A stretch of 64,000 nucleotides of DNA from Escherichia coli (GTDB taxonomy: Bacteria > Pseudomonadota > Gammaproteobacteria > Enterobacterales > Enterobacteriaceae). Below are positions 5,026 to 61,137 of this stretch, piece after piece (positions within the stretch are counted from its first letter, which is position 1; each line of letters starts with the position of its first letter). The notes beneath the pieces are model-generated. The model did no database searches, was not told the DNA's origin, and worked only from the letters and a program-made list of their open reading frames with translations. The DNA lies in NCBI RefSeq assembly GCF_016026235.1, contig NZ_CP065613.1; one strand, written 5' to 3'. The position numbers were made by a program, and so were the translations under genes.

Positions 5026-8572
<3,547 letters not shown>

Positions 8573-13905: not shown

Positions 13906-14019
13906 GGGGGCTCTGTTGGTTCTCCCGCAACGCTACTCTGTTTACCAGGTCAGGTCCGGAAGGAAGCAGCCAAGGCAGATGACGCGTGTGCCGGGATGTA
14001 GCTGGCAGGGCCCCCACCC
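13906..14019 (+). ncRNA. ffs: 4.5S RNA (signal recognition particle RNA)
   Basis: 114 nt GGGGGCUCUGUUGG...GGCAGGGCCCCCACCC read directly; matches the E. coli 4.5S RNA as I recall it. Confidence 0.93.
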
Positions 14020-29549: not shown

Positions 29550-31481
29550 ATGAGTTATCAGGTCTTAGCCCGAAAATGGCGCCCACAAACCTTTGCTGAC
29601 GTCGTCGGCCAGGAACATGTGCTGACCGCACTGGCGAACGGCTTGTCGTTAGGGCGTATTCATCATGCTTATCTTTTTTCCGGCACCCGTGGCGTCGGAA
29701 AAACCTCTATCGCCCGACTGCTGGCGAAGGGGCTAAACTGCGAAACCGGCATTACCGCGACGCCGTGCGGCGTGTGCGATAACTGTCGTGAAATCGAGCA
29801 GGGGCGCTTTGTCGATCTGATTGAAATCGACGCCGCCTCGCGCACCAAAGTTGAAGACACTCGCGACCTGCTGGATAACGTCCAGTACGCTCCGGCGCGT
29901 GGTCGTTTCAAAGTTTATCTGATCGACGAAGTGCATATGCTGTCGCGCCACAGCTTTAACGCATTGTTAAAAACCCTTGAAGAGCCGCCGGAGCACGTTA
30001 AGTTTCTGCTGGCGACGACCGATCCACAGAAATTGCCGGTGACGATTTTGTCACGCTGTCTGCAATTTCATCTCAAGGCGCTGGATGTCGAGCAAATTCG
30101 CCATCAGCTTGAGCACATCCTCAACGAAGAACATATCGCTCACGAGCCGCGGGCGTTGCAATTGCTGGCGCGCGCCGCTGAAGGCAGCCTGCGAGATGCC
30201 TTAAGTCTGACCGACCAGGCGATTGCCAGCGGTGACGGCCAGGTTTCAACCCAGGCGGTCAGTGCGATGCTGGGTACGCTTGACGACGATCAGGCGCTGT
30301 CGCTGGTTGAAGCGATGGTCGAGGCCAACGGCGAGCGCGTAATGGCGCTGATTAATGAAGCCGCTGCCCGTGGTATCGAGTGGGAAGCGTTGCTGGTGGA
30401 AATGCTCGGCCTGTTGCATCGTATTGCGATGGTACAACTTTCGCCTGCTGCACTTGGCAACGACATGGCCGCCATTGAGCTGCGGATGCGTGAACTGGCG
30501 CGCACCATACCGCCGACGGATATTCAGCTTTACTATCAGACGCTGTTGATTGGTCGCAAAGAATTACCGTATGCGCCGGACCGCCGCATGGGCGTTGAGA
30601 TGACGCTGCTGCGCGCGCTGGCGTTCCATCCACGTATGCCTCTGCCTGAGCCAGAAGTGCCACGCCAGTCCTTTGCGCCCGTCGCGCCAACGGCAGTAAT
30701 GACGCCAACCCAGGTGCCGCCGCAACCGCAATCAGCGCCGCAGCAGGCACCGACTGTACCGCTCCCGGAAACCACCAGCCAGGTGCTGGCGGCGCGCCAG
30801 CAGTTGCAGCGCGTGCAGGGAGCAACCAAAGCAAAAAAGAGTGAACCGGCAGCCGCTACCCGCGCGCGGCCGGTGAATAACGCTGCGCTGGAAAGACTGG
30901 CTTCGGTCACCGATCGCGTTCAGGCGCGTCCGGTGCCATCGGCGCTGGAAAAAGCGCCAGCCAAAAAAGAAGCGTATCGCTGGAAGGCTACCACTCCAGT
31001 GATGCAGCAAAAAGAAGTGGTCGCCACGCCGAAGGCGCTGAAAAAAGCGCTGGAACATGAAAAAACGCCGGAACTGGCGGCGAAGCTGGCGGCAGAAGCC
31101 ATTGAGCGCGACGCGTGGGCGGCACAGGTGAGTCAACTTTCGCTACCAAAACTGGTCGAACAGGTGGCCTTAAATGCCTGGAAAGAGGAGAGCGACAACG
31201 CAGTATGTCTGCATTTGCGCTCCTCTCAGCGGCATTTGAACAACCGCGGTGCACAGCAAAAACTGGCTGAAGCGTTGAGCATGTTAAAAGGTTCAACGGT
31301 TGAACTGACTATCGTTGAAGATGATAATCCCGCGGTGCGTACGCCGCTGGAGTGGCGTCAGGCGATATACGAAGAAAAACTTGCGCAGGCGCGCGAGTCC
31401 ATTATTGCGGATAATAATATTCAGACCCTGCGTCGGTTCTTCGATGCGGAGCTGGATGAAGAAAGTATCCGCCCCATTTGA
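29550..31481 (+). CDS. dnaX: DNA polymerase III subunits tau and gamma
   Basis: ORF track 643 aa; Walker A GTRGVGKTS. Confidence 0.97.
   Translation: MSYQVLARKWRPQTFADVVGQEHVLTALANGLSLGRIHHAYLFSGTRGVGKTSIARLLAKGLNCETGITATPCGVCDNCREIEQGRFVDLIEIDAASRTKVEDTRDLLDNVQYAPARGRFKVYLIDEVHMLSRHSFNALLKTLEEPPEHVKFLLATTDPQKLPVTILSRCLQFHLKALDVEQIRHQLEHILNEEHIAHEPRALQLLARAAEGSLRDALSLTDQAIASGDGQVSTQAVSAMLGTLDDDQALSLVEAMVEANGERVMALINEAAARGIEWEALLVEMLGLLHRIAMVQLSPAALGNDMAAIELRMRELARTIPPTDIQLYYQTLLIGRKELPYAPDRRMGVEMTLLRALAFHPRMPLPEPEVPRQSFAPVAPTAVMTPTQVPPQPQSAPQQAPTVPLPETTSQVLAARQQLQRVQGATKAKKSEPAAATRARPVNNAALERLASVTDRVQARPVPSALEKAPAKKEAYRWKATTPVMQQKEVVATPKALKKALEHEKTPELAAKLAAEAIERDAWAAQVSQLSLPKLVEQVALNAWKEESDNAVCLHLRSSQRHLNNRGAQQKLAEALSMLKGSTVELTIVEDDNPAVRTPLEWRQAIYEEKLAQARESIIADNNIQTLRRFFDAELDEESIRPI
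30833..30839 (+). other. dnaX: dnaX programmed -1 ribosomal frameshift heptamer A AAA AAG (yields gamma; -1 frame stops at TGA 30842-30844), followed by GC-rich stem-loop
   Basis: Slippery heptamer and downstream hairpin CCGGCAGCCGCTACCCGCGCGCGGCCGG read directly; mechanism is established for E. coli dnaX. Confidence 0.85.
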
Positions 31482-38900: not shown

Positions 38901-38985
38901 CGTAGGCCAGCTAAGGCGTTCACGCCGCATCTGGCATTTTGCTCTCAATGCCTGATGCGACGCTGGCGCGTCTTATCAGGCCTAC
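38901..38985. repeat. REP elements downstream of gsk
   Basis: GCCTGATGCGACGCTGGCGCGTCTTATCAGGCCTAC type palindromic units. Confidence 0.7.
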
Positions 38986-44659: not shown

Positions 44660-44743
44660 ACACCGTCGCTTAAAGTGACGGCATAATAATAAAAAAATGA
44701 AATTCCTCTTTGACGGGCCAATAGCGATATTGGCCATTTTTTT
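44660..44743 (+). ncRNA. chiX: ChiX (MicM/SroB) small RNA
   Basis: About 84 nt ACACCGUCGCUUAAAGUGACGGCAUAAUAAUAAAAAAAUGAAAUUCCUCUUUGACGGGCCAAUAGCGAUAUUGGCCAUUUUUUU in the ybaK-ybaP intergenic region, ending in a terminator hairpin plus U-tract; recognised from memory. Confidence 0.88.
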
Positions 44744-46037: not shown

Positions 46038-46275
<238 letters not shown>

Positions 46276-60302: not shown

Positions 60303-60602
<300 letters not shown>

Positions 60603-61046: not shown

Positions 61047-61137
61047 TGCTAGATGAGGACTGTTTCATTTCTGCCCGGAACCACCAAGTCTTGGGCGGAA
61101 AAAATAAAAAAACCGACTGTCATGTCGGTTTTTTTAT
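61047..61137 (+). ncRNA. candidate antitoxin sRNA (about 90 nt), divergent from the toxin ORF; its 5' end carries a 16 nt box identical to 60861-60876 and hence complementary to the minus-strand toxin leader
   Basis: Near-consensus sigma70 promoter TTGAAT (61013-18), 17 nt spacer, TATAAT (61036-41); transcript would start about 61044-61048 and end at hairpin AACCGAC-TGTCAT-GTCGGTT plus 7 T (61111-61137). Confidence 0.45.
61111..61137. terminator. bidirectional Rho-independent terminator (A-tract, hairpin, T-tract) shared by selU (minus) and the candidate sRNA (plus)
   Basis: AAAAAAACCGAC TGTCAT GTCGGTTTTTTT read directly. Confidence 0.75.

What the first reader, a model, noticed from the sequence alone, without database searches (positions are those of the whole stretch)
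30833..30876. dnaX programmed -1 frameshift signal conserved
Slippery heptamer A AAA AAG followed by stem-loop CCGGCAGCCGCTACCCGCGCGCGGCCGG; the -1 frame terminates immediately (GAG TGA), producing the gamma subunit. This shows the dnaX recoding site is intact.
Basis: partly seen in the sequence, partly recalled or inferred. Interest (0 to 1): 0.3.

Follow-up and report, generated by a model that had tools for sequence, protein, structure and literature searches.

The report
E. coli dnaX frameshift site, intact
This is the textbook E. coli dnaX ribosomal frameshift site, which lets one gene make both the long (tau) and short (gamma) subunits of the replicative DNA polymerase clamp loader; it is intact here, identical to E. 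coli K-12, and entirely ordinary.

Summary
Window 29550-31481(+) is E. coli dnaX (643 aa). A_AAA_AAG lies at 30833-30839 in the X_XXY_YYZ phase (AAG = codon 430). The -1 frame reads GAG TGA, giving a 431-aa gamma. An 11-bp bulged hairpin follows at 30845-30874.

Rfam RF00382 (DnaX frameshifting element) matches 30814-30878 end to end at 96.8 bits (gathering score 35). RefSeq annotates the same 65 nt as 'DnaX frameshifting element'. The 65-mer is 100% identical in 5372 of 5423 E. coli genomes, including MG1655.

In 42 distinct Enterobacterales versions the hairpin is always kept: 88% of cells are paired, and the closing pair covaries (A-U 29, G-C 10). Synonymous sites in the stem are more conserved than in the flanks (0.79 against 0.56-0.57).

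Hairpin stability alone is unremarkable for such GC-rich sequence (z = -1.9). The heptamer alone occurs at the chance rate. The significance lies in the combination and its conservation.

Verdict: already known, with low interest. Seen in passing: the same window also holds the other known E. coli -1 frameshift site, in copA.

The parts
29550..31481 (+). dnaX zero-frame ORF encoding tau (643 aa, 71.1 kDa calculated)
   Evidence: ORF list. NCBIfam NF005942 DnaX equivalog, 981.5 bits, cutoff 613. Pfam domains include tau domain IV (aa 417-498) and domain V (aa 500-640). 100% identical to annotated dnaX of E. coli FDAARGOS_943.
29550..30844 (+). Coding range of gamma: zero frame to codon 430 (AAG, 30837-30839), a -1 shift, then GAG (30839-30841) and the stop TGA (30842-30844); 431 aa, 47.5 kDa calculated, C-terminus ...ATKAKKE
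   Evidence: Frame arithmetic and translation. [quoted passage not shown]
30814..30878 (+). Full extent of the DnaX ribosomal frameshifting element as modelled by Rfam RF00382
   Evidence: cmscan: 96.8 bits, gathering score 35, model positions 1-65 of 65, E = 3.6e-21 and 5.8e-20 over the whole window. The same 65 nt are annotated in RefSeq.
30817..30822 (+). Internal Shine-Dalgarno-like 5' stimulator AGGGAG, followed by a 10-nt spacer (30823-30832, CAACCAAAGC)
   Evidence: Sequence. The literature names AGGGAG as the SD stimulator; mutating it lowered frameshifting from 84% to 50% in vitro (PMC5389563).
30833..30839 (+). Slippery heptamer A_AAA_AAG (Lys429-Lys430 in the zero frame)
   Evidence: In the X_XXY_YYZ phase. 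Named as the dnaX shift site in PMC5009743 and PMC5389563.
30842..30844 (+). TGA stop codon in the -1 frame that ends gamma
   Evidence: First -1 frame stop after the heptamer.
30845..30874 (+). 3' stimulatory hairpin with 11 bp. Lower stem 30845-30850 pairs with 30869-30874; A30851 lies opposite G30868; upper stem 30852-30856 pairs with 30862-30864 and 30866-30867, with C30865 bulged; loop UACCC at 30857-30861. It begins 5 nt after the heptamer if the A-U pair is counted, or 6 nt counting from the first C-G pair.
   Evidence: RNAfold MFE -19.7 kcal/mol, and the same pairs as the Rfam consensus structure. Across 42 Enterobacterales sequences 88.3% of cells are paired, against 28-52% for slid controls, with 4 pairs showing double changes. 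All 42 fold to 9-11 bp hairpins. Codon-position-3 identity is 0.79 against 0.56-0.57 in the flanks. The literature describes an 11-bp stem with a bulged C and an A:G apposition (PMC5009743).

Best explanation
This is the programmed -1 ribosomal frameshift cassette of Escherichia coli dnaX.

How it works:
1. A ribosome translating dnaX reaches codons 429-430 (AAA AAG) with the two tRNA-Lys on A_AAA_AAG.
2. At that point the 11-bp GC-rich hairpin 5-6 nt downstream sits at the mRNA entry channel and slows EF-G-driven translocation.
3. At the same time the internal AGGGAG, 10 nt upstream, pairs with the anti-Shine-Dalgarno tail of 16S rRNA.
4. [quoted passage not shown]
5. The ribosome then reads GAG (Glu) and stops at TGA.

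The shifted ribosomes, about half of the total in vivo according to the literature, make gamma (431 aa). Gamma lacks nearly all of tau's DnaB-binding domain IV and all of the Pol III alpha-binding domain V. The remaining ribosomes make full-length tau (643 aa).

Shown here: every sequence element, its phase and spacing, identity with the K-12 cassette, family membership, and conservation and covariation of the hairpin. Taken from the literature, or inferred from sequence identity: that the shift occurs, its efficiency, and its kinetic route.
For: - Host gene: the ORF is dnaX.
- Recoding signals: the heptamer is in phase, the -1 stop is one codon away, and gamma is 431 aa.
- 5' stimulator: AGGGAG with a 10-nt spacer.
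- Hairpin: folds as in the Rfam model.
- Family match: RF00382 at 96.8 bits against 35, full length.
- Annotation: RefSeq feature 'DnaX frameshifting element' on the identical sequence.
- Within species: 100% identity of the 65-mer in 5372/5423 E. coli genomes including MG1655.
- Across Enterobacterales the hairpin was not constrained by the search pattern. 88.3% of cells are paired, 0 of 500 shuffles reach that, and slid controls give 28-52%. The closing pair is A-U 29, G-C 10, G-U 1. There are G-C to A-U double changes at two further pairs. All 42 sequences fold to 9-11 bp hairpins of -16.6 to -22.1 kcal/mol, although the upper stem is built in three registers.
- Synonymous-site conservation is higher in the stem (0.79) than in the flanks (0.56 and 0.57).
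- The shift point (codon 430) falls just inside Pfam tau domain IV (aa 417-498) and ahead of domain V (aa 500-640).
- Literature: three signals, namely slippery sequence, SD and hairpin. In vitro efficiency is 84%, falling to 50% without the SD, 20% without the hairpin and 2% with G AAG AAG (PMC5389563). About 50% of ribosomes shift and terminate one codon later, and the stem has 11 bp with a bulged C and an A:G apposition (PMC5009743). The slip is translocation-coupled and involves two tRNAs (PMC6771820).
Against: Nothing in the sequence argues against it.

Limits:
- No expression data for this strain were examined, so frameshifting is inferred from 100% identity with the studied cassette.
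- Hairpin stability on its own is only marginally better than shuffled GC-rich sequence (z = -1.93).
- The cross-species set was selected by a pattern that fixed the SD, the heptamer and GAGTGA. Their conservation in that set is therefore by construction, and lineages with diverged signals were not sampled.
- The kinetic details of the slip are still debated in the literature (PMC5009743).
Confidence: 0.97

Rival explanations
1. Gamma is produced by transcriptional slippage of RNA polymerase on the A-run, as in Thermus thermophilus dnaX. A subset of mRNAs would then carry an extra or a missing A, and ordinary translation would reach the nearby out-of-frame stops.
For: The site contains a homopolymeric A-run. 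Both non-zero frames close quickly: the -1 stop is at 30842 and the +1 stop at 30874. That layout is the one exploited in T. thermophilus (PMC5009743).
Against: The run is only 6 A, whereas efficient bacterial transcriptional slippage is described for runs of about 9 A or T (PMC5009743). The conserved, covarying hairpin and the fixed 10-nt SD spacing are features of a ribosomal mechanism. In vitro translation of defined dnaX mRNA gives 84% frameshifting that depends on the SD, hairpin and heptamer (PMC5389563).
Confidence: 0.01
2. The shift is ribosomal, but the main route is slippage of the P-site tRNA-Lys alone while the A site is empty ('hungry' one-tRNA route), not two-tRNA slippage during translocation.
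For: This second route has been demonstrated on dnaX mRNA when aminoacyl-tRNA is limiting (PMC6771820). One single-molecule study proposed that the incoming tRNA can pair directly in the -1 frame (PMC5009743).
Against: The review states that tRNA-Lys is abundant, that the one-tRNA route is slow, and that it is 'only elicited by starvation' (PMC6771820). Nothing in the sequence distinguishes the two routes, and both give the same gamma protein.
Confidence: 0.05
3. The combination of heptamer, stop codon and GC-rich palindrome is a chance co-occurrence within a proline/alanine-rich, GC-rich linker and has no recoding function.
For: The heptamer occurs at the chance rate in the window, 16 against 13.7 expected. 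Hairpin stability is only z = -1.93, with 7 of 200 shuffles folding as well.
Against: RF00382 full-length match with E about 1e-20. The site ranks first of 50 in-phase heptamers and is the only one with all features together. The 65-mer is identical in 5372/5423 E. coli genomes. There are compensatory changes in the stem and raised synonymous-site conservation across genera. There is also decades of direct experiment.
Confidence: 0.005
4. Gamma arises by proteolytic cleavage of tau, as in Caulobacter crescentus, and the RNA signals are incidental.
For: A proteolytic origin of gamma is documented in C. crescentus (PMC5009743).
Against: The same review assigns E. coli gamma to -1 frameshifting, with termination one codon after the shift. 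The conserved RNA cassette would be unexplained. The gamma C-terminal Glu is encoded only in the -1 frame.
Confidence: 0.005

Closest known systems
E. coli K-12 dnaX -1 programmed ribosomal frameshift element (Rfam RF00382)
   Same: Everything. The 65-nt element is 100% identical to that of K-12 MG1655 (hit H14) and matches the model end to end. SD-like AGGGAG, 10-nt spacer, A_AAA_AAG, GAG-TGA and the 11-bp bulged hairpin are the same.
   Different: Nothing within the element. Elsewhere in dnaX the window is 95-99% identical to about half of E. coli genomes and at least 99% identical to the other half.
dnaX frameshift elements of other Enterobacterales (Citrobacter, Enterobacter, Kluyvera, Pantoea, Erwinia, Mixta, Serratia, Cedecea and others)
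   Same: Same SD-like motif, same 10-nt spacer, same heptamer and GAG-TGA (all required by the search pattern, except the spacer length). Same position of a 9-11 bp GC-rich hairpin with the invariant core CCGG...CCGG.
   Different: The top of the stem and the loop are rebuilt. 21 of 42 sequences use a GCGC:GCGC upper stem with a 5- or 8-nt loop, and 2 move the bulge. The closing pair is G-C instead of A-U in 10. Candidatus Pantoea persica (L016) has a different downstream sequence.
E. coli copA -1 frameshift producing CopA(Z)
   Same: A chromosomal -1 PRF that ends in a stop one codon after the shift and yields a functional truncated protein (PMC6771820; PMC10861913). It lies in the same window, at 48635-48629(-).
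   Different: The heptamer is C_CCA_AAG. The stimulator is a pseudoknot, not a simple hairpin (PMC6182138). My scan found no SD-like motif in the 20 nt upstream. The shift comes early, at codon 69 of 834.
Thermus thermophilus dnaX (transcriptional slippage) and Caulobacter crescentus dnaX (proteolysis)
   Same: The same gene yields tau and a shorter gamma in about a 1:1 ratio (PMC5009743).
   Different: Different mechanisms: RNA polymerase slippage on a longer A-run, or post-translational cleavage. Neither is a ribosomal -1 shift.
IS3-family (e.g. IS911) transposase -1 frameshifting, and prfB +1 frameshifting
   Same: Use of an internal Shine-Dalgarno sequence as a 5' stimulator acting through the 16S rRNA of the elongating ribosome (PMC5009743). 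That IS3-family elements often use A_AAA_AAG is from my own knowledge.
   Different: IS elements produce a fusion protein, with the -1 frame staying open, and often use more elaborate 3' structures. prfB shifts +1, with much shorter SD spacing, and is autoregulatory.

Membership tests
DnaX ribosomal frameshifting element (Rfam RF00382) | Covariance-model score at or above the curated gathering score | tested here: met
   96.8 bits against 35, model positions 1-65 of 65, not truncated.
DnaX ribosomal frameshifting element (Rfam RF00382) | Located inside dnaX, at the boundary between the gamma-common part and the tau-specific domains | tested here: met
   Host ORF matches NCBIfam NF005942 at 981.5 bits, cutoff 613. 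The shift at codon 430 falls within Pfam tau domain IV (aa 417-498) and before domain V (aa 500-640).
DnaX ribosomal frameshifting element (Rfam RF00382) | Slippery heptamer A_AAA_AAG in the X_XXY_YYZ phase of the zero frame | tested here: met
   30833-30839, with 30833 at codon position 3.
DnaX ribosomal frameshifting element (Rfam RF00382) | -1 frame stop directly after the shift, giving a C-terminally truncated product | tested here: met
   GAG TGA; stop at 30842-30844; gamma is 431 aa.
DnaX ribosomal frameshifting element (Rfam RF00382) | Stable stem-loop 5-6 nt 3' of the heptamer | tested here: met
   11-bp hairpin at 30845-30874, -19.7 kcal/mol, with the same pairs as the model. Supported by covariation and by conservation of pairing across 42 sequences. 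Stability alone is only z = -1.93.
DnaX ribosomal frameshifting element (Rfam RF00382) | Internal Shine-Dalgarno-like sequence about 10 nt 5' of the heptamer | tested here: met
   AGGGAG at 30817-30822 with a 10-nt spacer. The spacer is 10 nt in all 51 homologous loci, although 9-11 was allowed. Pairing with this strain's 16S rRNA tail was not tested, because the window holds no rRNA gene.
DnaX ribosomal frameshifting element (Rfam RF00382) | Roughly half of ribosomes actually shift, producing gamma and tau together | not testable with these tools
   Taken from the literature for the identical K-12 sequence (PMC5009743; PMC5389563).

The most novel reading that the evidence does not exclude
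Nothing about the window's own element is novel, since it is base-for-base the K-12 cassette. The most novel reading the data leave open is comparative. Across Enterobacterales the top of the hairpin has been rebuilt in at least three base-pairing registers. Even so, the stem stays at 9-11 bp and within a narrow predicted stability band (-16.6 to -22.1 kcal/mol), at a fixed distance from the heptamer. This would fit selection for a stability set-point that holds the tau:gamma ratio, rather than selection for a particular sequence. The idea may already be implicit in published mutagenesis, where two substitutions raise frameshifting to 176% of wild type (PMC5009743). My sample was also pre-selected by pattern.
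Probability: 0.3. Interest if true: 0.12.

Novelty: already known. Interest (0 to 1): 0.04.

Why it matters
As a discovery it does not matter. dnaX -1 frameshifting has been one of the model systems of translational recoding since 1990, it has a curated Rfam family, and genome pipelines annotate it automatically. The practical value is for annotation quality. In this window dnaX encodes two products, tau (643 aa) and gamma (431 aa), and the site is intact, so the strain should make both clamp-loader subunits. The check also shows that the first-stage reader can recognise a genuine recoding signal from raw sequence, although it missed the upstream Shine-Dalgarno stimulator.

Tried and rejected
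1. Second in-phase A_AAA_AAG at 6292(-), with a -17.7 kcal/mol downstream fold. It lies in a 160-aa antisense ORF (5875-6357, -) inside the 590-aa plus-strand ORF 5026-6798, which is the size of mdlA. There is no SD-like motif. Rejected as a spurious ORF.

2. Two more AAAAAAG in dnaX, at 30963 and 31041. Both start at codon position 1 (AAA_AAA_G), so they are not in the X_XXY_YYZ phase. Rejected as shift sites.

3. About 40 Collinsella loci that match the scan pattern exactly. There the AGGGAG is a real ribosome-binding site, followed by GTG CCA AAA AAG AGT GAG. Only 11 in-frame codons lie upstream and about 446 downstream, and there is no hairpin (-7.4 kcal/mol). This is the start of an unrelated gene, and its high count reflects the many Collinsella species in the collection. 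The other scattered hits (Prevotella, Bacillus, archaea and others) have short ORF context and no hairpin, so I treat them as chance matches.

4. Weak Rfam hit STnc460 at 31332-31421 (25.3 bits against a gathering score of 70, E = 0.12). Treated as chance.

5. Mapping window coordinates onto NZ_CP065615.1 by simple offset failed. An ungapped comparison of window 1-32000 gave 7860 mismatches, and copA is displaced by 100 nt. The window therefore has indels relative to that assembly even though dnaX itself is 100% identical. I used the window's own ORFs instead. Locus L003 never appeared in the script file area.

6. I did not determine which bases differ in the 51 E. coli genomes whose 65-mer is less than 99% identical, because the tool lists too few rows to reach them.
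Full report
**What is at the coordinates.** Window 30833-30839 reads AAAAAAG. The only long ORF over it is 29550-31481 on the plus strand, 643 aa. Position 30833 is the third base of a codon of that ORF, so the zero frame reads GCA AAA AAG AGT GAA. This is A_AAA_AAG in the classical X_XXY_YYZ phase, with AAG as codon 430. After a one-base backward slip the frame reads AAA AAA GAG TGA, with the stop at 30842-30844. The shifted product is 431 aa ending ...ATKAKKE (47.5 kDa calculated), against 643 aa (71.1 kDa) for the unshifted one.

There is one detail to correct.

**The hairpin.** RNAfold of 30840-30880 gives a single dominant structure of -19.7 kcal/mol. Its pairs are the same as in the Rfam consensus:
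- lower stem: 30845-30850 with 30869-30874, closed by an A-U pair;
- A30851 opposite G30868;
- upper stem: 30852-30856 with 30862-30864 and 30866-30867, with C30865 bulged;
- loop: UACCC at 30857-30861.

This matches the published description of an 11-bp stem with a bulged C and an A:G apposition (PMC5009743). The stem starts 5 nt after the heptamer if the A-U pair is counted, or 6 nt if not.

AGGGAG lies at 30817-30822, separated from the heptamer by exactly 10 nt. This is the internal Shine-Dalgarno-like 5' stimulator, the third of the three known dnaX signals (PMC5389563; PMC5009743).

**Is it more than chance?** Taken singly, the parts are not remarkable. AAAAAAG occurs 16 times in the window against 13.7 expected. 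The hairpin is only marginally more stable than dinucleotide shuffles of the same GC-rich sequence: z = -1.93, and 7 of 200 shuffles fold as well.

The combination is what stands out. I scanned every stop-to-stop ORF of at least 150 codons on both strands and found 50 in-phase X_XXY_YYZ heptamers. The dnaX site ranks first for downstream folding energy. It is the only one that combines that fold with an SD-like motif upstream and a -1 stop one codon away. The covariance model RF00382 matches 30814-30878 end to end at 96.8 bits (gathering score 35), with E = 5.8e-20 over the whole window.

**Identity of the locus.**
- The ORF is 100% identical to dnaX of E. coli FDAARGOS_943, and 5424 of 5426 complete E. 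coli genomes hold a match covering at least 80% of it.
- Its neighbours in that record are apt upstream and ybaB, recR and htpG downstream. RefSeq places a feature 'DnaX frameshifting element' on the homologous 65 nt.
- The protein passes the NCBIfam DnaX equivalog NF005942 at 981.5 bits against a cutoff of 613.
- Pfam places tau domain IV (DnaB-binding) at aa 417-498 and domain V (alpha-binding) at aa 500-640. A stop after residue 431 therefore removes nearly all of domain IV and all of domain V. This is the known difference between gamma and tau.

**Conservation within the species.** The 65-nt element is 100% identical in 5372 of 5423 E. coli genomes, including K-12 MG1655 and BW25113. The other 51 are 95-99% identical. 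I could not list which bases vary in those 51.

**Conservation between genera.** I ran one scan of the species-representative genome collection with AGGGAG-N(9-11)-AAAAAAGAGTGA, which leaves the hairpin unconstrained.
- Fifty-one loci are dnaX-type. They are all from Enterobacterales (Escherichia, Citrobacter, Enterobacter, Kluyvera, Kosakonia, Pluralibacter, Pantoea, Erwinia, Mixta, Serratia, Cedecea, Buttiauxella and others). Where the locus is long enough, about 430-510 in-frame codons lie upstream and about 215 downstream.
- All 51 have a spacer of exactly 10 nt, although 9-11 was allowed.

I aligned forty-two distinct 65-mers, the window's among them, as alignment A1.
- Under the Rfam structure 88.3% of cells form a standard pair. 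No shuffle out of 500 reaches this, and sliding the 3' partners by 1-3 columns gives 28-52%.
- The closing pair covaries: A-U 29, G-C 10, G-U 1, unpaired 2.
- The pair at columns 36-57 is G-C in 41 sequences and A-U in one (Mixta). The pair at columns 42-50 is A-U in one sequence.
- The upper stem is built in three registers: the E. coli form in 19 sequences, a GCGC:GCGC form in 21, and a form with the bulge moved in 2. Every one of the 42 sequences still folds to a 9-11 bp hairpin of -16.6 to -22.1 kcal/mol.
- RNAalifold, with no structure supplied, recovers the eight pairs common to all.

In a 367-nt alignment of 47 loci, identity at third codon positions is 0.79 inside the stem-loop, against 0.56 in the upstream flank and 0.57 in the downstream flank. 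That is the expected signature of selection on RNA structure on top of selection on the protein.

One caveat applies. Conservation of the SD, the heptamer and GAGTGA in this set is by construction, and lineages with diverged signals were not sampled.

**Mechanism.** The steps below are taken from the literature and apply here through sequence identity.
1. With the two tRNA-Lys on the heptamer, the hairpin at the mRNA entrance acts as a roadblock to EF-G-catalysed translocation.
2. The SD:anti-SD duplex behind the ribosome adds to the stall, and together with the hairpin it causes repeated futile EF-G binding.
3. The slippery sequence offers alternative pairing one base back (PMC5389563).
4. 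The prevalent route is two-tRNA slippage during translocation. A slow one-tRNA route appears only under aminoacyl-tRNA starvation (PMC6771820).

In vitro the cassette gives 84% frameshifting. This falls to 50% without the SD, 20% without the hairpin and 2% with G AAG AAG. In vivo about half of ribosomes shift and terminate one codon later (PMC5009743). Nothing in this window was measured, so occurrence and efficiency are inferred.

**Rivals.**
- Transcriptional slippage, as in Thermus thermophilus dnaX, is unlikely. The run is six A, and such slippage is described for runs of about nine. It would also leave the conserved hairpin and the fixed SD spacing unexplained.
- Proteolytic production of gamma, as in Caulobacter, cannot produce the -1-encoded Glu431.
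- Chance co-occurrence is excluded by the model score and by the comparative data.

**False leads.**
- An in-phase A_AAA_AAG at 6292(-) lies in an antisense ORF inside a 590-aa plus-strand gene.
- The two other AAAAAAG in dnaX (30963 and 31041) are out of phase.
- About 40 Collinsella hits to the scan pattern are an ordinary translation start, SD then GTG CCA AAA AAG..., with no hairpin.

**Comparison with what is known, and verdict.** The element is not merely similar to the E. coli K-12 dnaX frameshift cassette; it is that cassette, base for base. Every defining feature that can be read from sequence is met. The only untestable one is the frameshifting itself. It is already known, curated in Rfam and annotated automatically in RefSeq.

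Its interest score of 0.3 is too high; I give 0.04.

The one mildly interesting by-product is comparative. The upper stem has been rebuilt in three registers across Enterobacterales while length, stability and position are held. This would fit selection for a stability set-point that fixes the tau:gamma ratio.

**Seen in passing.** The same window contains the other known E. coli chromosomal -1 frameshift site. copA is 48835-46331 on the minus strand, 834 aa. An in-phase C_CCA_AAG at 48635-48629 is followed in the -1 frame by GGC TAA, which predicts a 70-aa product. This fits the published CopA(Z) copper chaperone made by -1 PRF (PMC6771820; PMC9548414; PMC10861913). That the published heptamer is this exact one is from my memory of Meydan et al. 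2017 and was not verified in a held text.

Noticed in passing
window 48635-48629 (- strand), inside copA 48835-46331 (-): In-phase C_CCA_AAG (CCA = codon 68, AAG = codon 69). The -1 frame reads CCC AAA GGC TAA, predicting a 70-aa truncated product. This fits the published copA -1 frameshift that makes the CopA(Z) copper chaperone with a downstream pseudoknot stimulator (PMC6771820, PMC9548414, PMC6182138, PMC10861913). The window therefore holds both known E. coli chromosomal -1 PRF sites. No Rfam family reached its gathering score there. I did not model the pseudoknot, and the identity of the published heptamer is from memory.
   Followed up: partly
alignment A1 of loci L008-L123, columns 39-54 (equivalent to window 30852-30867): Across Enterobacterales the upper part of the dnaX hairpin exists in three base-pairing registers: the E. 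coli type in 19 sequences, a GCGC:GCGC type in 21, and a shifted-bulge type in 2. Total stem length (9-11 bp) and predicted stability (-16.6 to -22.1 kcal/mol) are kept. Candidatus Pantoea persica (L016) has a different downstream sequence that I left out of the alignment.
   Followed up: partly
loci L004, L005, L017-L019, L023 and about 35 more (Collinsella spp.): An exact match to AGGGAG-N10-AAAAAAGAGTGA is conserved across many Collinsella species. It is a ribosome-binding site plus the start of a roughly 446-codon ORF (GTG CCA AAA AAG AGT GAG AGC ACG...), with no downstream hairpin. It is unrelated to dnaX. I did not identify the gene.
   Followed up: partly
window 30842-30844 and 30874-30876 (+): Both non-zero frames close right around the hairpin: a -1 frame TGA before it and a +1 frame TGA immediately after it. 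The +1 frame TGA is not conserved outside the E. coli-type sequences (alignment A1), so it is probably incidental.
   Followed up: partly
window 38905-38982, 46041-46118, 46142-46219, 60370-60447, 60470-60548: Five copies of Rfam naRNA4 (RF02564, 75-87 bits) lie in intergenic positions, two of them as tandem pairs. Two copies also score on the opposite strand. This is what I would expect of REP/BIME-type palindromic repeats (my reading, not tested).
   Followed up: no
window 61049-61137 (+) and 60324-60366 (-): Rfam AgrB (53.6 bits) and ES036 (40.4 bits) both match here. In the related genome record a dinQ type I toxin gene is annotated in the corresponding region, between mnmH and ybbP.
   Followed up: no
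window 13914-14010 (+) and 44660-44743 (+): ffs (4.5S / small SRP RNA, 68.1 bits) and the sRNA sroB (82.1 bits) are present and full length. No tRNA genes occur anywhere in the 64 kb.
   Followed up: no
whole window compared with NZ_CP065615.1: dnaX is 100% identical to E. coli FDAARGOS_943, but the window is not colinear with that genome. An ungapped comparison of window 1-32000 gives 7860 mismatches, starting at the first bases, and copA is offset by 100 nt. There are therefore indels on both sides of dnaX, and the window comes from another E. coli strain. I did not locate the indels.
   Followed up: no
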